Position numbers and translations under genes: made by a program
Shown here: piece after piece, positions 419 through 9,098 of the stretch
Position numbering within the stretch: position 1 is the stretch's first letter
How the letters are laid out: each line of letters begins with the position of its first letter
Notes under the pieces: model-generated
Told to the model about the DNA's origin: nothing
What the model saw: only the letters and a program-made list of their open reading frames with translations
The model's database searches: none
NCBI GenBank assembly: GCA_048886185.1
Contig: JBHLKY010000052.1
Span: 1-9,098, forward strand
Direction: 5' to 3'
DNA length: 9,098 nt
Source: Candidatus Hermodarchaeota archaeon
GTDB taxonomy: Archaea > Asgardarchaeota > Heimdallarchaeia > Hodarchaeales > Hodarchaeaceae

Positions 419-1291
419 ATGAATACGACAAAAAAAGATCCTGCAGTCTGGGTTAAAACAATAATAGAGAAATTTCTTAATGATCCTGCTGAGAATACTT
501 TACAAGATAAAACAAATCAGAGAGCGTGGGCGGAACCACTTATTGGTTTCTCTAATGGCGCTGATCCTCTCTTTCAGTTTTATAAGCAGGATATTGGTGA
601 GTTTTATCTACTCCCAGAAGAATTATTTGTCTATACTTATCCTAAGATCACCTTCACCCCCGAACAGTTAACCGTCATAAGTTGGATTTTACCTCACACC
701 GATGTCACAAAGGCTGAACATCGTGATCAGACCAAATTTCCTACAGAGCGATGGGCGAGAGCACGGATATATGGCGAAGAGGTAAATGACAACCTCCGCT
801 CGTATTTGGTGAAGAAGCTAACTAAAGAAGGGTTCCCTGCCTCAGCACCAATTTTATCGCCTCTATGGCATAGGACGATTTCAGATAAGTATTTCATCGC
901 CTCAACCTGGTCTGAGCGACACGCAGCTTATACTGCAGGTCTTGGTACCTTTGGTCTGTGTGATGGTTTGATTACACCGAAAGGAAAGGCAATGCGCTGT
1001 GGGTCAGTTATTGCGAAAATCAACATCAAACCCTCGGAGAGGGTTTACGACGATCCTTACGCATATTGTTTATTTTATATGAAGGGAACATGTGGTGACT
1101 GTATAAACCGCTGCCCCTGTGGAGCGATCTCTGAAAAGGGACATGACAAGGAAAAATGCCGCAAATACCTTAGGAAAACCACACAGTACTATGTACAAAA
1201 GTATTTTAATTTCAAAGGGTATGGATGCGGGTTATGTCAGACGGGAGTTCCTTGTGAATCAGGTATCCCACCAGAATTATTATTAAAATGA
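419..1291 (+). CDS. Epoxyqueuosine reductase (QueG)/reductive dehalogenase-like cobalamin- and 2x[4Fe-4S]-binding protein
   Basis: 290 aa. SERHAAYTAGLGTFGLCDGLITPKG..R.GSV matches the AGLG..G motif region of the QueG/RdhA superfamily. The C-terminal Cys set C-x7-CGDC-x3-CP ... C ... CGLC-x5-C (nt 1067-1255) fits two 4Fe-4S clusters. No TAT/signal peptide. True substrate unknown. Confidence 0.85.
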   Translation: MNTTKKDPAVWVKTIIEKFLNDPAENTLQDKTNQRAWAEPLIGFSNGADPLFQFYKQDIGEFYLLPEELFVYTYPKITFTPEQLTVISWILPHTDVTKAEHRDQTKFPTERWARARIYGEEVNDNLRSYLVKKLTKEGFPASAPILSPLWHRTISDKYFIASTWSERHAAYTAGLGTFGLCDGLITPKGKAMRCGSVIAKINIKPSERVYDDPYAYCLFYMKGTCGDCINRCPCGAISEKGHDKEKCRKYLRKTTQYYVQKYFNFKGYGCGLCQTGVPCESGIPPELLLK

Positions 1292-1384
1292 TCTGATTTT
1301 TAGAACAATATTGTAAATCCAGCCTTTGGCGGAGTCTAGAGAATTATCAAGTTGATTGTAAATACCTCAGTATAATAATTTTCT

Positions 1385-1401
1385 TAACCTAACCAACGTT
1401 A
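1385..1401 (+). repeat. 17-bp intergenic motif, copy 1 (TAACCTAACCAACGTTA)
   Basis: 16/17 identical to 8517-8533 and 15/17 to 8412-8428, all in direct orientation. Ends TAAC/GTTA are self-complementary. Confidence 0.8.
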
Positions 1402-1594
1402 AATGGAAATTTTTTGCGTATTATTATAAAAAGAGTCCTAGTTAAGTGATTTGAATAAACCACAGTACACACAGTAGAAGGAGGTGGGAATCTATTGTAA
1501 TTAACTGATGGGAACCAATTCGCTGGGGAAAAATTCATATTGAATGATGAAAACGATGAAATAAAGTGCCCTTTAGAAATCACACACCAAAGGC

Positions 1595-1625
1595 TAGTTT
1601 CTTGAAAGGAATTCGAGAGAAACTA
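1595..1625. promoter_or_regulatory. Inverted repeat TAGTTTCT-N15-AGAAACTA upstream of the membrane regulator gene
   Basis: Perfect 8-bp arms at 1595-1602 and 1618-1625. Function (operator or hairpin) is inferred. Confidence 0.3.
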
Positions 1626-1714: not shown

Positions 1715-3403
1715 ATGAATCAATTTAACATTGTTATTCTTAGTATTCTTCTGTTAGGGTTTACTAGCTGGACAGTAAATTTTAATATTAAGTCCACTAC
1801 AGTTGCTTTCATTCCAAATGAACTGACAAAGGGACATACAACACTGGTATCAAAAAGCGCATATAGCCAAACGTATACTCCCCATTCATCTATTGTAATT
1901 ACAGATAATGCCTATTTCGCCACGCAAGGTTTTTCGGGGAGTGGGACTCTTGATGACCCGTACCAGATTGAGTACCTTAATATTACAGCCCCCAGTGGTG
2001 ATTTGATTAGTATCAGTGACACGACCGTTAATTTCTGTATTAATAACAATTTTCTAAATGGCCTGACAACAGCGTCATCTGGAATTTCTCTCACAAATGT
2101 TCACAATGCCGTTATCAAAAACAACACAGTCTTAAATGCCAGATTTGGGGTATTTCTCTTGAACATCACTAATTGCACGCTCCTGGAAAATCTGGTTCAT
2201 GATAATATGCTCAATGGGGTGCATCTCAAGGAAGCTAGCAATACAACCATTACTAACAATACCATCTATAACCATAATTATGGTGAGTACCCCTACAGCA
2301 GTATTCTTCTCGACAATTCTTCGCATTCATCTATTACTCATAATTCACTATCCAATAGCTATATTGGCATAAACCTCCTTCATTCGGCTCACACTAACTT
2401 CATTAGAAACAATACCGTGTTTAACAATCTACAACATGGTATTCGCCTTGAATATGCTTCTAAAAACTTGATTACCCACAATATTATTCATGACAATCAA
2501 TACTATGGGATTCTCTTTACATTAGGCGCGAACAATAACACGATTAGCTACAACAATTTCACTCGTAATCATGCTGGTGATTGCCAAGGTACGGATGATG
2601 GGGTCAAAAATGTGTTTACTTACAACTATTGGGATGACTGGCCCATTCTGGACGCTGATGATGATCTCATTATCGATACTCCTTATCTCCTTGATGGTAC
2701 TGCCAATAATTCCGATCCATATCCTCTGGTATCGGTTAAGGCATATTTATTCAACAAAAGTCAGGGGAGTGGTTTGGAAAACGATTTAATCCAATTATTT
2801 GTATTGTTCATTGCTCTCATATTAGTTCCGAGTCTCACTTTGGGTTATTTTCTGTATATGAGAAAGGTAAAACAACAGGAACTTTCTCCTGAACCTGATG
2901 ACCAGATACCATTTGAAGAAGTCTTTCCATCAGACCAGATTGAGCGTTTGAAACCCCTCTATCACAAACTCATTGTGGGATTAGAGAACACCCAGACTAC
3001 ATCACTCCCTGAACCCGTAACTATTACTCTCCTAGAACCTCCAGACTCCGTAGAATTAGTGGAATACTTCCCTTCTGAGATCAAAGACGATTTAGTCTCA
3101 GGTCTCAAAGGTCGCACCATTTTAACTTTGATTGAGATTGCTTATCAGGATCCCAGTGAAACTAATTTGGTAAAATTAGCACAAAGTCTCGATGTCCCCT
3201 TATCCACTCTTTCCAAAGAAATAAAACGCCTGAATGACTTAAAGTATGTCGAAACGTTTGTTTCCCCTAAAGTGCTCTATGATGCTCGTTTTAAAAACTA
3301 TATTATCACCCCCAAAGGGTTTAAATTTCTATTCATTCTGAAAGAAGCATTACGCATTACAATTTCTCGTCTAAAAGAGACCAGGGGGGATATCTATATC
3401 TGA
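1715..3403 (+). CDS. Membrane-anchored transcription regulator: N-terminal signal/anchor, extracellular parallel beta-helix (NosD-like), single TM helix, cytoplasmic MarR-like winged HTH
   Basis: 562 aa. Hydrophobic N-terminus (IVILSILLLGF), GSGTLDDPYQIE N-cap, about 22-aa GI.L...NN.I..N coils, YNYWDDW...DTPY...DPYPL C-cap, TM at aa 358-382 followed by RKVK, then a wHTH with LAQSLDVPLSTLSKEIKRL and DARFKNYIITPKG. Confidence 0.85.
   Translation: MNQFNIVILSILLLGFTSWTVNFNIKSTTVAFIPNELTKGHTTLVSKSAYSQTYTPHSSIVITDNAYFATQGFSGSGTLDDPYQIEYLNITAPSGDLISISDTTVNFCINNNFLNGLTTASSGISLTNVHNAVIKNNTVLNARFGVFLLNITNCTLLENLVHDNMLNGVHLKEASNTTITNNTIYNHNYGEYPYSSILLDNSSHSSITHNSLSNSYIGINLLHSAHTNFIRNNTVFNNLQHGIRLEYASKNLITHNIIHDNQYYGILFTLGANNNTISYNNFTRNHAGDCQGTDDGVKNVFTYNYWDDWPILDADDDLIIDTPYLLDGTANNSDPYPLVSVKAYLFNKSQGSGLENDLIQLFVLFIALILVPSLTLGYFLYMRKVKQQELSPEPDDQIPFEEVFPSDQIERLKPLYHKLIVGLENTQTTSLPEPVTITLLEPPDSVELVEYFPSEIKDDLVSGLKGRTILTLIEIAYQDPSETNLVKLAQSLDVPLSTLSKEIKRLNDLKYVETFVSPKVLYDARFKNYIITPKGFKFLFILKEALRITISRLKETRGDIYI
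2786..2860 (+). other. Transmembrane helix of the 1715 protein
   Basis: LIQLFVLFIALILVPSLTLGYFLYM followed by basic RKVK. The positive-inside rule puts the C-terminus in the cytoplasm. Confidence 0.85.
3110..3331 (+). other. MarR-type winged helix-turn-helix domain
   Basis: HTH NLVKLAQSLDVPLSTLSKEIKRLNDLKYV. The wing D-x-R-x6-T-x-x-G (DARFKNYIITPKG) has the same spacing as the MarR DxR...LTxxG signature. Confidence 0.8.
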
Positions 3404-3464
3404 GTTTGTGCAATTAACAGTATTTACGAAGATAGAGGATCCATCAGAGTCTTTTGAACAAGAT

Positions 3465-3533
3465 AAAACTATTTCCCAAATGGAGAATATCATTTCATTA
3501 TTTGAACATGTTTTCTGGGAAAGAATTAGTTTT
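3465..3533. promoter_or_regulatory. Imperfect inverted repeat upstream of the surface-protein gene pair
   Basis: AAAACTATTTCCCA (3465-3478) pairs with TGGGAAA-gaat-TAGTTTT (3516-3533), with a 4-nt bulge. TGAACA occurs at 3455, 3503 and 3545. Confidence 0.3.
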
Positions 3534-3540
3534 CATATTT

Positions 3541-3547
3541 AAGGTGA
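3541..3547 (+). promoter_or_regulatory. Shine-Dalgarno (archaeal-type AAGGTGA)
   Basis: GGTGA core; the motif ends 9 nt before ATG 3557. Confidence 0.6.
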
Positions 3548-3556
3548 ACAAACACT

Positions 3557-5719
3557 ATGATTCGAAATAAACTTGTTTTTATTACATTAATCCTTGTTCT
3601 TTTGTTTGGAATGAGTTATTCTACTGCTTTCTTCGAGTTTCAACCGAGCTCTAAAGAAAAAACGGTGAATGAGACCACGCTACGTCCTCAAAATCCCCTC
3701 CTGAAAGTATCCAATATTCAAACGTATATCGAACATGGGCCTATTACCATCACCTCAGATTTTCAATTGAATAATTCGGGATTTCCTGGTAATGGCACCA
3801 TTGACGATCCCATTCGGATTGAAGGGCTTAATATCACTGATACGAGTGGGACTTTAATCTATATCAGCGGAACAACATTCTATTTCTGTATCAAAAATAA
3901 TCTCCTGAACTGTCTATCAAGTGCAGGCACGGGAATCGTTTTGGATAATGTTATTCATGGTAATATATCAAATAACATCATACATGACATTAATGGGGCT
4001 GGGATTTTTATTACCGGAAATTCAAATAATAATATTATTAACAAAAACTTCATCTATAATGCTCAAAATAGCATTTCTCTTTCTTTTGCAATAAATAACA
4101 CTATTTACAACAATACCTGTTATTCAAATAGTGAGGATGGTATTCGTGTTGACTCCTCGGACAATAATACTATTGCAATGAATTTTATTTACGATAATAC
4201 AGCGTGTGGTGTGTGGCTATGGACTTCAAATAATAATACACTAATTCATAATATTCTTTATAATAATTCATTTGGTTTATTTTTTGAATTATCCAATAAT
4301 AATACAATTTCAAATAATAAAGTATATGAAAACAAGAATGCTGGTATTTCTCCGTACAATTCGTCATTATATAATGTAATTACTAATAACACTGTATATA
4401 ATAATGCTCACAGTGGTATTACCGTCTCTAGATATTCCCATTATTGTGTTATCTCAAACAACACAATCTATAACAACAACCAAAGTGGGATCGTTAACTA
4501 TGAATCTGAATATTCACAAATTATCAATAACACTATTTTTAATAATATGTGGAGTGGTACTCACATCTCATCAAGATCCCATCATTGTTTGTTTTCTAAC
4601 AATATAGTTTATGGAAACAAGAAATATTCTGGAATCAGTGTTGGTAATTCTACATTTGTAAGAATAACCAAGAATTCTATTTATAATAATATTGAAAAGG
4701 GTATATTTGTCGTAATCGGTGCAAATAATACTGAAATATTCGCGAATATTATTTTTGATAATATAAAGCAAGGGATTTTCATTGAAACAGATTGTAATAA
4801 TAACACAATAATCAATAATGATCTTTCTAGCAATAATCCAAGCGGATTACAAACATTAGATGATGGTTCAGCTAATAATTTTACTAGCAACCATTGGAGC
4901 GATTGGACAGGAACGGGGTCATATACCATTGATGGTTCTGCAGGGAATCAAGATTTCTCTCCCTTACTGAATCCATATCATATAACACCGCCTATCATCA
5001 CAGCACCAACCTATGAAAATATAACATTAGTAGGGAAGGTACTTATACGATGGAATGCTTCAAGTGATACTTTTGGGCATTCTCTTACCTACTCTGTTCT
5101 TTATTCGACCAACGATGGAACTAGTTGGACAACATTTGCTTCAGGCTTGACCAGTACCAATTACACCTTAGATACCCTACTGCTCGCTGATGAGCCCATT
5201 ATTTTCAAAGTTCAAGCTATTGATTCAATAGGATTTATTGCTAAGGCTACCACAGAAGAGACATTTCTGATAGAAAATGATCAACTTTCTATTCTTATAG
5301 TACTATCCCCGAATGGGGGAGAAACACTGAATGAAACTGTCACCATCGAATGGTCTGCTTCTCTGGATTCTCTCAATCATTCTATAACTTATGCGATTTA
5401 TTATTCTGGTGATGGCGGGGCAACCTGGAATCTAATAGTTACTGATCTCACATCTACCACTTATGCATGGGATACCACTACTGTCTCAAATGGCTTTAGT
5501 TACTTGATCAAAGTGGTTTCCACCTGTTCTGGGGGTAAAGTAGCTGAAGATCTCTCTGACGAGCTGTTTACTATCCAGAATGAAATACCTACTTCAACTG
5601 AACCCTCATCTAAGTCAACTTCTACTACTCCTAGTCCGATCCCAGGAATCACGGGGATTGAACTGCTCATAGCATTGTTAATTCTGATGATGGGGAAGAA
5701 TTGGAAGAAAAGAAGGTAA
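3557..5719 (+). CDS. Cell-surface parallel beta-helix (NosD/pectin-lyase-like) protein with two Fn3/Ig-like stalk domains and a PG-x C-terminal sorting/anchor tail
   Basis: 720 aa. Signal peptide (MIRNKLVFITLILVLLFG), GNGTIDDPIRIE cap, long Asn-ladder coil array, NHWSDW cap, two ~97-aa beta domains with YSxDGGxTW-like motifs and SPNGGE, S/T/P linker, and IPGITGIELLIALLILMMGKNWKKRR tail. Confidence 0.85.
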   Translation: MIRNKLVFITLILVLLFGMSYSTAFFEFQPSSKEKTVNETTLRPQNPLLKVSNIQTYIEHGPITITSDFQLNNSGFPGNGTIDDPIRIEGLNITDTSGTLIYISGTTFYFCIKNNLLNCLSSAGTGIVLDNVIHGNISNNIIHDINGAGIFITGNSNNNIINKNFIYNAQNSISLSFAINNTIYNNTCYSNSEDGIRVDSSDNNTIAMNFIYDNTACGVWLWTSNNNTLIHNILYNNSFGLFFELSNNNTISNNKVYENKNAGISPYNSSLYNVITNNTVYNNAHSGITVSRYSHYCVISNNTIYNNNQSGIVNYESEYSQIINNTIFNNMWSGTHISSRSHHCLFSNNIVYGNKKYSGISVGNSTFVRITKNSIYNNIEKGIFVVIGANNTEIFANIIFDNIKQGIFIETDCNNNTIINNDLSSNNPSGLQTLDDGSANNFTSNHWSDWTGTGSYTIDGSAGNQDFSPLLNPYHITPPIITAPTYENITLVGKVLIRWNASSDTFGHSLTYSVLYSTNDGTSWTTFASGLTSTNYTLDTLLLADEPIIFKVQAIDSIGFIAKATTEETFLIENDQLSILIVLSPNGGETLNETVTIEWSASLDSLNHSITYAIYYSGDGGATWNLIVTDLTSTTYAWDTTTVSNGFSYLIKVVSTCSGGKVAEDLSDELFTIQNEIPTSTEPSSKSTSTTPSPIPGITGIELLIALLILMMGKNWKKRR
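4988..5581 (+). repeat. Two tandem Fn3/Ig-like domains (about 4988-5278 and 5288-5581)
   Basis: Shared pattern W.AS.D...HS.TY...YS..[DG]G..W......LTST.Y..DT.......KV...........E.F.I.N. Confidence 0.75.
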
Positions 5720-5720
5720 A

Positions 5721-8315
5721 ATGAAATTGAAACGATCGAAATTGTTTATGATTACAAGTTTAATAATGCTATCTGCAGTGAATAGTTGTGTGGTAGGACA
5801 AGAGTTTCAATTCACTACAGAAAAAGAATTATTGAATACAAAGGCACTCCAACCTAGATCATGTATACAAAAAGTGACTGGTACCCAATCGTATATTGAA
5901 CGTGGTCCTATCACCATTACCTCTGATTTTCAATTAAACAATTCAGGGTTTCCAGGGAATGGCACCATTGATGATCCCATTCGGATTGAAGGCTATAATT
6001 TCACTGATTCGAGTGGAACGTTAATCTATATTCGGGATACAACCTTCTACTTCGAGATTACGAATAATTATCTTAATGGGTTGTCAAGTGCTTCGAGGGG
6101 TATCCATTTTTACAATGTTATCCATGGAACCATTAGAAATAACACTATTTCTTCTTGTGGGCAAGGGATTGAGTTTTGGTACTCTAATGACAACACAATT
6201 ATCAATAATACCGCATTCAACAATAACTATAACGGAGTCAAGTTTCATTTCACTTCTAATAATAATAAAATCATAAACAATACTATATACAATAATATCC
6301 AAGAAAATGGGATTTGGCTCGAACACTCAAAATATAATACAATTGCAAACAATACTGTGTTTAGTAACGATGACGGAATTAGATTACTCGACTCTAGTAG
6401 TAATAATACGGTGACAAACAACATTGCATTCGATAATAGATGGAATGGAATAGCTGTCCAATGGGATTCTAATAACAACATCATTAGTAAAAATTTTGTG
6501 AATAACAACTTAAAAGATGGAATTAATATTGCTGGGGCTAATAATAACTCTGTTATACAGAATATTGTGAAGAGTAGCAATTGGAGAGGAATAGCAATTG
6601 AAAAAAATTTTGCTGATAATATTGGTTCCGAAAACAATAATATCGATTTTAATATAGTCTATAACAATAGCCAGCAAGGGATTCTCCTTAATGTGGTTAA
6701 TAATAATACTGTTACCAATAATACAGTTTATCTCAACTCCCAGAATGGGATTTGTCTCGAGGAGTCAAATGATAACACTATTGCAGATAATAATATTCAT
6801 GATAATTATTTCACTGGAATTTATCTTCATAACTCAGTCAATAATACGCTGTCCAACAATACTCTGACGAATAACTATTTTAATTTGATTAAATCAGAAA
6901 CATTGTTAACACCGGTCCAAGAGGGGATTTATGATTTCACTGTAACTATCCAGAACATAAGCACTCCAGTTTCAGCTAATTCTGTACCAATCTCATGGGA
7001 AAATGTCTATTATGAATTACCACTTGATAATGGTTATGGAATTCTGGATGAGAACGTTGTTGATCTAGATCTGAACGGGGATAATGATAAAATAGACTTA
7101 TTTGATGTAACATGGTTCCATAATGAAACTCGCTCATGGGATGCTATAATCAACGATGGTTTTCAAGACATTCACGCTTACTCCATCTACGAGGGACTAC
7201 CTGAAGATCCAGGAAGGTATCGAACATATTACATAGACGGAGAATCAAAGCTATTCCAGCTAGGGACTAAAATGCATTCGCTTTATATGGTAAATAAAGA
7301 TCTTGCTGTTTTCGGATTAGAGGACGTGATTATTCTTAACCACCCAAGCCCAAACTTCCTGTTTGTTGTATACTCTCCAATTATCGATGTAACAGACTTT
7401 TACATTAATAATGCACTTATTGAAGTGAACTACACTCATACATTAGCAGCACCACAATTTGGGTTGGACTTGACATTCTATATTATCTCAGCTCAAACAA
7501 TCGGGTCAGCTGAGGTAATAACATTTTCCTGTACAATATTAACCCGCGAAACCATGATTAGTAATGTGGCCTTCCGTATGAACTGGTCACCAGATGGTAA
7601 TACTAGGTCCCAATGGGACTTTTTTACTCAAGAAATCTCGCTCATTGGTGATAACACTCCACCAACGGTGATAATAAATAAACCTCTCGCGCAAACATAT
7701 GTGACTGATACAATCACTATAGCATTGTCAGGCGATGCAACTCATTATTGGTACTATATTGAGTCAGTAGACATACAAAATCAAACCTGGACTAGTAATG
7801 TGACTCGACCATTAAGTGATGGTACCTATACCCTCCATGTGTATGGGGAGGACTCTGTGGGGAATATTGTTCGTAAGTCTGTTACGTTCACAATTGATAA
7901 TACTCCTCCATTGGTAATGATTGATTCCCCCCTCACCCAGATATACACGACTGATACAATCACTATCACATTATCAAGTGATGATGCAGTTAATTACTGG
8001 TACTACATTGAATCAGTAGATACACAAAATCAAACCTGGACTAGTGAAGTGACTCGATCATTAACTGATGGTACCTACACCCTCCACGCGTATGGGGAGG
8101 ACTTTGTGGGGAACATTGGTCACATCTACGTTACATTTACAATTGAAACCGCAGTTCCTACGACAACAACAACGACGATGATACCTAGTTCTACAACCCC
8201 TACCTCAGCAACAACTACTCCTACAAAAACTGTTACTCCTGGCTGGAATGTTCTGCTTTTACTTCTTACTTTATTTCTTATGTTACCACTAAGACAGCGT
8301 AAGAAGAAATCTTAA
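5721..8315 (+). CDS. Cell-surface parallel beta-helix protein with a ~256-aa unrecognised central domain, two Ig-like repeats, a Thr-rich linker and a PGW C-terminal sorting/anchor tail
   Basis: 864 aa. Starts 1 nt after the previous stop (TAA-A-ATG), consistent with translational coupling. Signal peptide, N-cap nearly identical to the 3557 protein, DNTPP...DG.YTLH.YGED.VGN Ig-like repeats, TTTTTT linker, and TPGWNVLLLLLTLFLMLPLRQRKKKS tail. Confidence 0.85.
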   Translation: MKLKRSKLFMITSLIMLSAVNSCVVGQEFQFTTEKELLNTKALQPRSCIQKVTGTQSYIERGPITITSDFQLNNSGFPGNGTIDDPIRIEGYNFTDSSGTLIYIRDTTFYFEITNNYLNGLSSASRGIHFYNVIHGTIRNNTISSCGQGIEFWYSNDNTIINNTAFNNNYNGVKFHFTSNNNKIINNTIYNNIQENGIWLEHSKYNTIANNTVFSNDDGIRLLDSSSNNTVTNNIAFDNRWNGIAVQWDSNNNIISKNFVNNNLKDGINIAGANNNSVIQNIVKSSNWRGIAIEKNFADNIGSENNNIDFNIVYNNSQQGILLNVVNNNTVTNNTVYLNSQNGICLEESNDNTIADNNIHDNYFTGIYLHNSVNNTLSNNTLTNNYFNLIKSETLLTPVQEGIYDFTVTIQNISTPVSANSVPISWENVYYELPLDNGYGILDENVVDLDLNGDNDKIDLFDVTWFHNETRSWDAIINDGFQDIHAYSIYEGLPEDPGRYRTYYIDGESKLFQLGTKMHSLYMVNKDLAVFGLEDVIILNHPSPNFLFVVYSPIIDVTDFYINNALIEVNYTHTLAAPQFGLDLTFYIISAQTIGSAEVITFSCTILTRETMISNVAFRMNWSPDGNTRSQWDFFTQEISLIGDNTPPTVIINKPLAQTYVTDTITIALSGDATHYWYYIESVDIQNQTWTSNVTRPLSDGTYTLHVYGEDSVGNIVRKSVTFTIDNTPPLVMIDSPLTQIYTTDTITITLSSDDAVNYWYYIESVDTQNQTWTSEVTRSLTDGTYTLHAYGEDFVGNIGHIYVTFTIETAVPTTTTTTMIPSSTTPTSATTTPTKTVTPGWNVLLLLLTLFLMLPLRQRKKKS
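7650..8144 (+). repeat. Tandem duplication of an 82/83-aa bacterial-Ig-like domain (7650-7895, 7896-8144)
   Basis: DNTPPTVIINKPLAQTYVTDTITI...YWYYIESVDIQNQTWTS...DGTYTLHVYGEDSVGN versus DNTPPLVMIDSPLTQIYTTDTITI...YWYYIESVDTQNQTWTS...DGTYTLHAYGEDFVGN. The similarity is also visible at DNA level. Confidence 0.9.
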
Positions 8316-8350
8316 ACTTTCTCATACTCCCCTTTACTCCTTTTTTTTCT
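8316..8350 (+). terminator. Pyrimidine/oligo-T tract, candidate archaeal intrinsic terminator for the surface-protein genes
   Basis: ACTTTCTCATACTCCCCTTTACTCC followed by T8 (8341-8348), directly after the stop at 8315. Confidence 0.5.
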
Positions 8351-8385: not shown

Positions 8386-8428
8386 ATACGTATCAACATA
8401 CGTATTTTTGATAACCTATCCAACGCTA
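8386..8428 (+). repeat. Composite unit A: ATACGTAT-N4-ATACGTAT-N6-TAACCTATCCAACGCTA
   Basis: Palindromes at 8386-8393 and 8398-8405; 17-mer copy 2 at 8412-8428. Confidence 0.7.
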
Positions 8429-8490
8429 TTTTCAGTGCGACCCCGTGATATCAGAAGATATTATTTGTCTAATTAATGTTAGATTAGTAA

Positions 8491-8533
8491 TTATATAATT
8501 TTTTATATAAAAACTTTAACCTACCCAACGTTA
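8491..8533 (+). repeat. Composite unit B: TTATATAA-N4-TTATATAA-N6-TAACCTACCCAACGTTA
   Basis: Palindromes at 8491-8498 and 8503-8510; 17-mer copy 3 at 8517-8533. Same spacing as unit A, offset by 105 bp. Confidence 0.7.
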
Positions 8534-8562
8534 TACCACATTAAAAATCCTCATACTTAATT

Positions 8563-8687: not shown

Positions 8688-9062
8688 TTAATGAAAGCAT
8701 TCTAGAATTTTGGTGTTCCATATTTCTTCAAGAATAAGAGCTAGCCAGCCTACTCTATGAATGAGGACATTAATATCTTTCCAATCAACATCAGCTAGTA
8801 GTTCTAGCAGTTGGTCTCCAGTAGTTTCTAGAAGCTCCTCTGTTAAGGAAATACGTCTGTTCTCGATTTCTTCAATAAAGTTCAAGATCGAATCTTCTGA
8901 AGCTTTTTTATTCTTAATCATTTGTCCTAAGATAAGTCCTGTTGCTTTTACAATCAAATCAGCTTTATCATGTTTCGCAAGATTGGGGAAATCGCCTTTG
9001 AAAAATAGTTTTGCCGTTCTCACATAGAGAGTTTGACTTTTTAATTGATTTTTTTCATTCAT
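8688..9062 (-). CDS. Hypothetical small, mostly helical protein
   Basis: 124 aa, ATG start, GGTGG 13 nt upstream, amphipathic helical pattern with an acidic middle (EEIENRRISLTEELLE). No family recognised. Confidence 0.65.
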   Translation of the reverse strand: MNEKNQLKSQTLYVRTAKLFFKGDFPNLAKHDKADLIVKATGLILGQMIKNKKASEDSILNFIEEIENRRISLTEELLETTGDQLLELLADVDWKDINVLIHRVGWLALILEEIWNTKILECFH

Positions 9063-9098
9063 TGAAACTCTTTTTCCACCAGGAACTACTAATTTTAA

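What the first reader, a model, noticed from the sequence alone, without database searches (positions are those of the whole stretch)
1715..8315. Sensor built from the same fold as its putative targets: regulator plus two surface proteins as one module
Seen: all three genes share the H..I.IT....GF.G.GT.DDP..IE..N.T..SG.LI.I..TT..F.I.NN.LN cap, so they are paralogues. They differ in their C-termini: TM-wHTH in the first, stalk plus anchor in the other two. The last two appear translationally coupled and have their own SD. Inference: one paralogue became a sensor that controls display of adhesin- or glycan-binding paralogues with related ligand specificity, conceptually like the carbohydrate-sensing RsgI anti-sigma factors of Clostridium thermocellum but without a sigma factor.
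Basis: inference. Interest (0 to 1): 0.75.

Follow-up and report, generated by a model that had tools for sequence, protein, structure and literature searches.

The report
Membrane-tethered regulator with surface-protein genes
An Asgard archaeon carries a membrane-spanning protein with a sugar-binding-type outer domain and a DNA-binding inner domain, and this protein most likely controls the fast-evolving surface-protein genes that lie right behind it, which would be a kinase-free way of passing outside signals to genes.

Summary
The three co-oriented genes (1715-3403, 3557-5719, 5721-8315) share an N-terminal beta-helix cap. The first ends in a TM helix plus a MarR-like winged helix, which the fold search confirms. 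The other two end in Ig-like stalks and C-terminal anchors.

The linkage recurs. The TM-wHTH module is about 50% identical in 52 proteins. It was found in 16 of 20 genomes of one Hodarchaeales/Heimdall-type family and 1 of 11 of another. In 22 of 26 informative loci the next gene encodes a beta-helix or beta-propeller surface protein.

In a cap tree, regulators and neighbours form separate supported clades, so this is an old module that was duplicated whole. An operator-like palindrome (TTTC-N6/7-GAAAATAC) sits just upstream of a TATA-like box in 16 of 21 regulator-neighbour spacers. In the window it lies at 3472-3491.

The "same fold, related specificity" idea is only partly supported. Cross-fold pairs exist. 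The regulator ectodomain is conserved (85%), while the neighbour's beta-helix body diverges (30-46%).

My best reading is a one-component transmembrane transcription regulator of a new, lineage-specific family. DNA binding and the signal are untested. The scan had already noted sister modules elsewhere in this genome.

The parts
1715..3403 (+). Regulator gene (562 aa): signal/anchor helix, beta-helix ectodomain, TM helix, MarR-like wHTH
   Evidence: ORF; Pfam Beta_helix/NosD; full-length AF2 model with pLDDT 76; 52 homologues carry the same C-terminal module.
1721..1792 (+). N-terminal hydrophobic helix (aa 3-26), a signal peptide or signal anchor
   Evidence: Helix 3-26 in the model; hydrophobic run at aa 6-21.
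1886..2719 (+). Right-handed parallel beta-helix ectodomain (aa 58-335). The shared N-cap is at 1883-2059.
   Evidence: pLDDT is 85-97. The best Foldseek matches are tailspike depolymerases, the alginate epimerases AlgG/AlgE4, pectate lyases and NosD. There are 11 N-x-S/T sequons here and none in the cytoplasmic part.
2780..2869 (+). Single transmembrane helix (aa 356-385), followed by MRKVK (positive inside)
2933..2992 (+). Conserved juxtamembrane cytoplasmic helix (aa 407-426, QIE.LKP.YHK.IVGLEN)
   Evidence: Alignment A2; models.
3056..3394 (+). MarR-like winged helix-turn-helix plus a long C-terminal helix (aa 448-560). The wing carries D-x-R-x5-I-T-x-K-G.
   Evidence: The Foldseek top 50 are all MarR/MepR/SlyA/ArsR-type. 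The profile search of PDB sequences puts MarR first at E 0.013. Invariant columns D179, R181, T188, K190, G191 of A2. Pfam MarR_2 scores only 18.4 bits, below the cut-off.
3472..3491 (+). Operator-like imperfect palindrome, TTTCCCAAATGGAGAATATC. It is the local form of the family motif TTTC-N6/7-GAAAATAC.
   Evidence: It is found in the corresponding spacer of 16 of 21 loci, including two out-of-sample loci. The strict form occurs in 6/18 spacers against 4/1280 background upstream regions.
3496..3507 (+). TATA-like box (CATTATTTGAAC), 5 nt downstream of the palindrome
   Evidence: AT-rich TATA-like boxes follow the palindrome at 6-10 nt in the other loci too. The assignment is an inference from sequence.
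3541..3547 (+). SD-like AAGGTGA, 9 nt before the ATG of gene 2
3557..5719 (+). Surface protein NB1 (720 aa): signal peptide, beta-helix, 2 Ig/FN3-like domains with Asp-boxes, S/T/P linker, C-terminal TM anchor
   Evidence: It belongs to the regulator-adjacent clade (99/98 support). It carries 25 sequons.
5721..8315 (+). Surface protein NB2 (864 aa): signal peptide, beta-helix, middle domain, 2 x Big_13, T-rich linker, PGW-TM-basic anchor
   Evidence: Its cap is 94% identical to the third gene of the C31 module. It is absent from the orthologous locus L006. Its C-terminal part is homologous to the neighbours of the 735-aa regulator class (E 2e-72).
8341..8348 (+). T8 run 26 nt after the stop of gene 3, a plausible archaeal terminator
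   Evidence: Sequence. The terminator function is an inference.
1592..1614 (+). Operator-like element, GGCTAGTTTCTTGAAAGGAATTC, 101 nt upstream of the regulator's ATG. It lies inside a conserved leader.
   Evidence: The same element sits in the homologous leader at C40, which has no such regulator behind it, so its link to this regulator is doubtful.

Best explanation
Gene 1 encodes a one-component transmembrane transcription regulator.

Architecture and proposed action:
- An N-glycosylated beta-helix ectodomain of the polysaccharide-binding/processing type faces outward.
- A single TM helix and a conserved juxtamembrane helix connect it to a cytoplasmic MarR-type winged helix.
- I infer that this winged helix acts as a dimer on the palindrome TTTC-N6/7-GAAAATAC (3472-3491 here). 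The palindrome abuts a TATA-like box in the spacer before gene 2.
- The regulator would thereby set transcription of the two anchored surface proteins, NB1 and NB2, which are read as one unit ending at the T8 run after 8315.

Shown:
- The architecture, topology cues and folds.
- The conservation of the module in one Hodarchaeales/Heimdall-type family.
- The recurrent gene linkage.
- The separate clades of regulators and neighbours.
- The conserved spacer motif.

Inferred:
- DNA binding to that motif.
- The direction of control. The site lies where BRE would lie, so activation or repression are both possible.
- The nature of the outside signal, with a glycan or surface polymer the most likely.
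- Whether the protein acts while tethered.
For: - Fold: the C-terminal model has pLDDT 86-94 over the wHTH, and all 50 best PDB matches are MarR/MepR/SlyA/ArsR-type regulators.
- Wing signature: D-x-R-x5-(I/L)-T-x-K-G is invariant across 38 homologues.
- Topology: an N-terminal hydrophobic helix, one TM helix, positive charges after the TM, and 11 sequons outside against 0 inside.
- Ectodomain: a parallel beta-helix like the tailspike, alginate-epimerase and pectate-lyase folds.
- Recurrence in this genome: there are 5 copies. C31 has the same three-gene layout, C14 is followed by a cap-bearing ORF cut by the contig end, and C8 is followed by an anchored SBBP propeller.
- Recurrence across genomes: in 22 of 26 informative loci the next same-strand gene is a beta-helix or beta-propeller surface protein, 56-630 nt away, in three loci behind a short ORF.
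- Beta-helix regulator class: 8 of 9 regulators of ~560-610 aa have a beta-helix neighbour, although such genes make up only ~29 of ~5300 ORFs.
- Tree: neighbours form a clade at 99/98 and regulators at 94/93. All 14 other beta-helix proteins of the genome fall outside both.
- Closed related genome: the two best of 29 cap matches are exactly the two genes behind the two beta-helix regulators.
- Motif: it occurs in 16 of 21 spacers at 54-143 nt from the next start (farther where a short ORF intervenes), always followed by a TATA-like box. Two loci fetched after the motif was defined carry it.
- Motif background: the loose form occurs in 10/18 spacers against 6.4% of 1280 real upstream regions. 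The strict form occurs in 6/18 against 0.3%.
- Precedent: DNA-binding regulators that act from the membrane are known in bacteria and archaea (PMC10269533; ArnR/ArnR1, PMC6396743).
Against: - There is no experimental or expression evidence.
- Pfam MarR_2 is below its cut-off for this protein (18.4 against 27 bits), and the sequence-profile match to MarR structures is marginal (E 0.013).
- The window's own palindrome is a degenerate form. Its right half is GGAGAA rather than GAAAAT.
- The motif is short and AT-rich. There are 48 exact genome-wide matches, most of them inside genes, so it could be a promoter element read by another factor.
- The loci are related by descent, so the enrichment statistics overstate independence.
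- Four loci lack a surface-gene neighbour (C2, L012, L017, L018).
- Nothing shows how ligand binding outside would change DNA binding inside.
Confidence: 0.6

Rival explanations
1. The parts are the same, but the signal passes by regulated proteolysis. Ligand binding or ectodomain shedding triggers cleavage in or near the membrane, and a soluble wHTH fragment then acts on the operator. The logic would be like RsgI, RseA, Notch or SREBP.
For: Two low-confidence, probably flexible stretches flank the juxtamembrane helix (aa 384-405 and 428-445, pLDDT below 50). These could be cleavage-accessible. A peptidase gene lies near some family members: C25 behind the L015 neighbour and S41 upstream of L027.
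Against: No protease gene is conserved next to the module, and there is none in this window. The TM helix and the juxtamembrane helix are themselves strongly conserved, which fits a signalling role of the intact protein. Archaea have no nuclear barrier that would demand release.
Confidence: 0.15
2. The ectodomain senses the cell's own coat rather than an outside ligand. It would contact the paralogous neighbour proteins, or the structure they build, through the shared cap, and feed their abundance or integrity back to their promoter.
For: Regulator and neighbours share a cap that is the best-conserved part between them. Regulators and neighbours have stayed together as two separate clades through repeated module duplications. 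The neighbours' beta-helix bodies diverge fast while the caps and stalks stay conserved.
Against: The regulator ectodomain does not co-vary with the neighbour's variable body. Family members with ~60-aa or ~170-aa ectodomains show no detectable similarity to their propeller neighbours. Cross-fold pairs exist (L026, L027).
Confidence: 0.12
3. Gene 1 is not a transcription factor. It is a structural or anchoring subunit of a surface complex formed with NB1/NB2. Its cytoplasmic winged helix binds protein or tethers DNA or cytoskeleton, and the spacer motif belongs to a promoter read by another factor.
For: Winged helices serve protein-protein contacts in many archaeal and eukaryotic systems (general knowledge). 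The motif also occurs upstream of surface-protein genes with no adjacent regulator, at C12:73401 and C56. An operator-like element sits in a leader at C40 that is unrelated to the family.
Against: The DNA-contacting features of MarR proteins, namely the recognition helix and the D-x-R wing, are the most conserved residues of the module. The structural matches are DNA-binding regulators, several solved with DNA. Unlinked motif copies fit a small regulon equally well.
Confidence: 0.1

Closest known systems
Transmembrane transcription regulators (TTRs) as surveyed by Demey et al. 2023 (PMC10269533), including ToxR, CadC and TcpP
   Same: One polypeptide joins an extracytoplasmic domain, a TM helix and a DNA-binding domain. 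Single-pass forms predominate. The targets are often adjacent genes. TTRs occur in archaea at about 4 per genome.
   Different: ToxR/CadC have an N-terminal OmpR-type wHTH and a C-terminal periplasmic sensor. Here the order is inverted: the ectodomain is N-terminal and needs a signal sequence, the DNA-binding domain is C-terminal, and it is MarR-like. The paper's text does not mention Asgard, MarR or beta-helix.
ArnR/ArnR1 of Sulfolobus acidocaldarius (PMC6396743)
   Same: They are archaeal membrane-bound one-component regulators of surface-structure genes. They bind inverted repeats (TCGAC-N5-GTCGA) in the target promoter.
   Different: ArnR has an N-terminal HTH, a HAMP-like and a sensor domain in the cytoplasm, two C-terminal TM helices and no large ectodomain. 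It is not homologous to this module by any search here.
RsgI anti-sigma factors of Clostridium thermocellum
   Same: A membrane protein's outside domain belongs to the same carbohydrate-active families as the products of the genes it controls.
   Different: RsgI works by sequestering the sigma factor SigI through an N-terminal anti-sigma domain. No such domain and no sigma factor exist here. The protein itself carries the DNA-binding domain.
Soluble MarR-family regulators (MepR, MarR, SlyA, HsmR)
   Same: The wHTH fold is the same, with helices before and after it, a D-x-R wing motif and a palindromic target of about 16-20 bp.
   Different: MarR proteins are cytoplasmic, ~140-150 aa long, and bind small ligands between the dimer interface and the DNA-binding lobes. 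This one is the tail of a 562-aa membrane glycoprotein and scores below Pfam's cut-off.
Co-component systems VtrA/VtrC and ToxR/ToxS (PMC9214523), and the SBP + membrane-wHTH cassettes noted earlier in this genome (e1-5455475)
   Same: They are fast-evolving cassettes that pair a membrane-tethered DNA-binding protein with an extracytoplasmic partner encoded next to it.
   Different: In those systems the partner forms the sensor together with the regulator. Here the regulator has its own large ectodomain, and the neighbour looks like an output (anchored surface protein) rather than a co-sensor.

Membership tests
Transmembrane transcription regulator (TTR; defined as a DNA-binding domain plus at least one TM region, PMC10269533) | Predicted DNA-binding domain | tested here: met
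   MarR-type wHTH by fold; weak sequence support.
Transmembrane transcription regulator (TTR) | At least one transmembrane region between the sensor and the DNA-binding domain | tested here: met
   Helix aa 356-385 with positive-inside residues.
Transmembrane transcription regulator (TTR) | Binds DNA and regulates transcription | not testable with these tools
   There is only indirect support: a conserved palindrome next to a TATA-like box in the spacers.
MarR family (Pfam PF01047/PF12802) | Score above the Pfam gathering threshold | tested here: not met
   MarR_2 scores 18.4 bits against a cut-off of 27 for aa 385-562. The precomputed annotation lists PF12802 for homologue P0014 and PF13601 for P0020 and P0028.
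MarR family | wHTH fold with flanking helices and the wing motif D-x-R-x5-L/I-T-x-x-G | tested here: met
   Foldseek top hits; invariant D179, R181, T188, K190, G191. That this motif defines MarR is from general knowledge.
MarR family | Homodimer that binds a (pseudo)palindrome | not testable with these tools
   The oligomeric state is not established. A palindromic candidate site exists.
RsgI-type anti-sigma factor | N-terminal cytoplasmic anti-sigma domain and an adjacent sigI gene | tested here: not met
   No such Pfam or NCBIfam domain was found in any of the proteins. There is no sigma gene in the window.
ToxR/CadC-like receptors | N-terminal OmpR-type wHTH (Trans_reg_C), TM helix, C-terminal periplasmic sensor | tested here: not met
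   The domain order is inverted, and no Trans_reg_C hit was found.
NosD (TIGR04247, nitrous-oxide reductase maturation) | Score above the curated cut-off (300 bits) | tested here: not met
   The three proteins score 45-65 bits. The similarity is beta-helix repeat similarity only.
PGF-CTERM / archaeosortase A substrates (genes 2 and 3) | C-terminal PGF motif + TM + basic tail, and an archaeosortase A in the genome | tested here: inconclusive
   The tails read PGI.../PGW... + TM + basic residues. There is no NCBIfam hit to a PGF-CTERM model at E<=0.01. TIGR04125 gives only two sub-threshold matches in the genome, at 30 and 24 bits against a cut-off of 75.

The most novel reading that the evidence does not exclude
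The closest archaeal relatives of eukaryotes may own a modular, kinase-free receptor system. One conserved TM + MarR-like signalling cassette would be grafted onto interchangeable ectodomains (beta-helix, beta-propeller, short stubs). Each copy would control, through a shared operator, a neighbouring surface protein that diversifies rapidly. In the beta-helix branch the sensor is a paralogue of its target, so the cell may be measuring its own coat, or attack on it by viruses or glycan-degrading neighbours, and renewing or switching the exposed protein in response.
Probability: 0.2. Interest if true: 0.8.

Novelty: new variant of a known kind. Interest (0 to 1): 0.6.

Why it matters
Signal transduction in Asgard archaea is almost unexplored experimentally. 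This family gives a concrete, testable circuit: a defined receptor, a defined candidate operator of about 20 bp, and defined output genes. The family is confined to the Hodarchaeales/Heimdall-type lineage, which the paper searches here did not link to any such regulator. It would extend membrane-bound transcription regulators to an inverted topology, with a glycosylated beta-helix outside and a MarR-type domain inside. It also shows surface proteins whose exposed beta-helix bodies turn over much faster than their regulator. That points to strong outside pressure on the cell surface of these organisms, for example from viruses, grazers or neighbours.

Tried and rejected
- Homodimer prediction for the cytoplasmic part (complex prediction, 2 copies of aa 399-562 with alignment A2): no verdict, score 0.24 against a mark of 0.42. 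This is not evidence either way.
- Expression: no RNA holder was listed for the stretch. Only four sediment DNA runs of one study, probably the source, and two small-share mangrove runs were found.
- Laying the DNA contigs showed only assembly-graph breaks at repeats and short-sided joints between copies of an intergenic repeat. No structural variant could be trusted.
- Rfam found no RNA family in the window at E<=0.1.
- BLAST between the regulator ectodomains of the ~370-aa and ~260-aa classes and their propeller neighbours gave no significant similarity. The 'same fold' idea therefore could not be extended to them by sequence. Their ectodomains were not folded.
- Regulon search: exact matches to TTTC-N6/7-GAAAATA number 48 genome-wide, and most are inside genes. 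Only C12:73401 and C56:2552 lie before other surface-protein genes. The motif is too weak on its own to define a regulon.
- Cassette mobility: I considered that direct repeats bracketing the modules mark mobile cassettes. A 28-nt repeat does bracket the L022 cassette. However, it belongs to an interspersed intergenic repeat with many copies in these genomes, so bracketing is not specific.
- Filing the proteins under NosD was rejected, because the scores are far below the cut-off.

Full report
**What is in the window.**
The 9098-base window is a whole contig (C52) of a 4.84-Mb, 96%-complete assembly. The names attached to its closest protein relatives place it among Hodarchaeales/Heimdall-type Asgard archaea. 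Three co-oriented ORFs fill 1715-8315.
- All three carry Beta_helix/NosD repeats above Pfam thresholds.
- The 90-residue cap alone retrieves genes 2 and 3 from the whole genome at E about 1e-19.
Gene 1 continues into one TM helix and a cytoplasmic domain. Genes 2 and 3 continue into Ig-like stalks, S/T-rich linkers and TM-plus-basic anchors.
- The stop of gene 2 and the start of gene 3 are one base apart.

**The cytoplasmic tail is a MarR-type winged helix.**
- Pfam gives only a sub-threshold MarR_2 hit, 18.4 against 27 bits.
- The last ~200 residues are about 50% identical in 52 proteins from public data.
- With that alignment AlphaFold2 gives a confident wHTH, pLDDT 86-94.
- The 50 best matches among solved structures are all MarR/MepR/SlyA/ArsR-type regulators, several of them solved with DNA.
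- A profile search of PDB sequences also puts MarR first, though weakly, at E 0.013.
- The most conserved residues are the recognition helix and a wing with D-x-R-x5-I-T-x-K-G. From general knowledge this is the MarR wing signature.
- The full-length model shows an N-terminal helix, a beta-helix (aa 58-335, pLDDT 85-97), a TM helix (356-385), a conserved juxtamembrane helix and the wHTH.
- Positive residues follow the TM helix. Eleven N-glycosylation sequons lie in the ectodomain and none in the tail, which fits an outside-in topology.
- The ectodomain resembles polysaccharide-active beta-helices: tailspike depolymerases, AlgG/AlgE4 epimerases, pectate lyases and NosD.

**The gene linkage recurs.**
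The genome has five copies of the TM-wHTH module.
- C31 repeats the same three-gene layout.
- C14 is followed by a cap-bearing ORF cut by the contig end.
- C8 has a ~177-aa ectodomain that is not a beta-helix, and is followed by an anchored SBBP propeller.
- C2 has no such neighbour directly behind it, but a homologue of the usual neighbour of its class lies about 6 kb away.

I then examined nineteen loci from species-representative genomes and three loci from metagenome contigs.
- In 22 of 26 informative loci overall, the next same-strand gene encodes a beta-helix or beta-propeller surface protein.
- Of nine regulators of the ~560-610-aa beta-helix class, eight have a beta-helix neighbour with BLAST E 1e-23 to 1e-37 to the regulator's own ectodomain. 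Such proteins are only ~29 of ~5300 ORFs in this genome.
- The module was found in 16 of 20 genomes of the window's own GTDB family and in 1 of 11 of a second family. It was found in none of about 270 other genomes of the phylum that were sampled.

**Regulators and neighbours are two old clades.**
- A maximum-likelihood tree of the caps puts the eight neighbours in one clade (99/98) and the seven ~570-aa regulators in another (94/93). A longer regulator class forms a third clade (100/98).
- All 14 other cap-bearing beta-helix proteins of the genome fall outside these clades.
- The pair therefore arose once and was then duplicated as a unit. The regulator was not repeatedly copied from its neighbour.
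- In a closed related genome, the two best of 29 cap matches are exactly the two genes behind the two beta-helix regulators. Three further good matches there have no regulator beside them.

**A candidate operator.**
The spacers between regulator and neighbour are not alignable across classes. Even so, 16 of 21 carry (A/T)TA(G/C)-TTTC-N6/7-GAAAATAC, followed after 6-10 nt by a TATA-like box. The motif lies 54-143 nt before the next start, and farther where a short ORF intervenes.
- Two loci fetched after the motif was defined, L025 and L026, carry it.
- Against 1280 real upstream regions of the same genome, the loose form occurs in 6.4% of regions but in 10 of 18 spacers.
- The strict form with ATA occurs in 0.3% of those regions but in 6 of 18 spacers. 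The loci are kin, so these figures overstate independence.
- In the window the site is TTTCCCAAATGGAGAATATC at 3472-3491. A TATA-like box lies at 3496-3507 and an SD-like AAGGTGA at 3541-3547.
- A palindrome abutting the TATA box, with a conserved recognition helix in the adjacent gene's product, is what a dimeric wHTH regulator acting on the neighbour's promoter would predict. The position fits either recruitment or exclusion of TFB.
- This is inference. No binding has been shown.

- 'Sensor of the same fold as its targets' is true of one branch, not of the family. The same signalling module sits on propeller, ~170-aa and ~60-aa ectodomains.
- The beta-helix regulator in L026 precedes SBBP propellers.
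- The propeller regulator in L027 precedes a beta-helix/NHL protein.
- 'Related ligand specificity' is not indicated. Between this genome and its close relative L006 the regulator is 85% identical along its whole length.
- Over the same comparison NB1 is 57% identical, with its beta-helix body at 30-46% and its stalk and anchor at 70-85%.
- NB2 is 79% identical to its C31 copy but has an internal patch at 21-52%.
- NB2 is missing from L006. Its C-terminal part is homologous to the neighbours of another regulator class, so it is a recent, mosaic addition.
- The outputs are therefore fast-evolving surface proteins, while the sensor is stable.

**Comparison with known systems.**
- The protein meets the loose definition of a transmembrane transcription regulator (PMC10269533). 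Such regulators are reported to be widespread, including in archaea.
- It differs from ToxR/CadC in domain order and in DNA-binding family.
- It differs from the archaeal ArnR/ArnR1 (PMC6396743), which has a cytoplasmic sensor and C-terminal TM helices.
- It differs from RsgI, having no anti-sigma domain and no sigma factor.
- It is not NosD, scoring 45-65 bits against a cut-off of 300.
- Three literature searches found no description of this family. A fourth turned up only the general TTR survey (PMC10269533), whose text does not mention Asgard, MarR or beta-helix.
- Earlier first-stage notes of this scan had flagged sister modules on other contigs of the same genome. I checked C31 and C14 directly.

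**Verdict.**
This is a real, recurrent module. It is most likely a lineage-specific one-component membrane regulator of adjacent surface-protein genes, which makes it a new variant of a known kind. The mechanistic core, meaning DNA binding, the signal and the sign of regulation, is untested. The homodimer prediction gave no verdict and no RNA data were available, as listed under Tried and rejected.

Noticed in passing
window 1384-1402, 8411-8429, 8516-8534: The motif AACCTAnCCAACG occurs three times, where 0.02 copies are expected, and brackets the three-gene block. About ten good copies exist genome-wide, often right after a TATA-like TATAAAAAC and 24-100 nt behind a gene's stop, for example C31:8395, 9539 and 12837, C39:22893 and C40:22802. 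It may be a promoter-proximal element of unannotated small transcripts. The copy at 8516 has no + strand gene behind it.
   Followed up: partly
window 1440-1620; L006:6600-6740; C31:1230-1370; C40:22450-22700 (-): A leader upstream of the regulator is far more conserved than the coding sequence, with about 85 nt nearly identical between C52 and L006. In L006, C31 and C40 it carries an SD and a 24-27-aa ORF (MLELTDGDQFGKE...). In the window the start of that ORF is lost and a stop follows. The C40 copy precedes an unrelated 88-aa gene. It may be a regulatory uORF or leader peptide.
   Followed up: partly
window 1316-1340; L022:1382-1409 and 4035-4062; many other places: There is an interspersed intergenic repeat, (G)GTGYTAATCCAGCCTTTTACGAC. 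About 20 good copies lie in this genome (five on C47 alone) and more in related genomes. In L022 two copies bracket the TM-wHTH + LVIVD pair. A degenerate copy lies just after the stop of the 419-1291 gene. Its function is unknown; it could be a terminator or a REP-like element.
   Followed up: partly
window 5721-8315 vs G000:C31:5854-8298: NB2 and its C31 copy are 90-100% identical over most of their length, including the 3' flank. A ~160-column patch in the beta-helix is only 21-52% identical. This is a mosaic that suggests recombination or diversifying selection in an exposed patch.
   Followed up: partly
G000:C12:73401-73428, upstream of C12:71435-73300 (-): An operator-like palindrome (TTTC-N7-GAAAATA) lies about 100 nt before a PGF-CTERM-type surface-protein gene. 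That gene is homologous to the neighbours of the 735-aa regulator class, but no regulator lies beside it. It may be an unlinked member of the regulon.
   Followed up: partly
window 419-1291 (+): A 290-aa protein shows weak, sub-threshold similarity to epoxyqueuosine reductase QueG and to the Fer4_16 4Fe-4S domain. It is not conserved next to the module in C31 or L006.
   Followed up: no
window 8688-9098 (-): A 124-136-aa ORF runs off the contig end and matches no Pfam or NCBIfam family.
   Followed up: no
L015:11928-13658: In one relative the anchored LVIVD neighbour is followed directly by a Peptidase_C25 (gingipain-type) surface protease gene. An S41 peptidase lies upstream of the propeller-type regulator in L027.
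   Followed up: no
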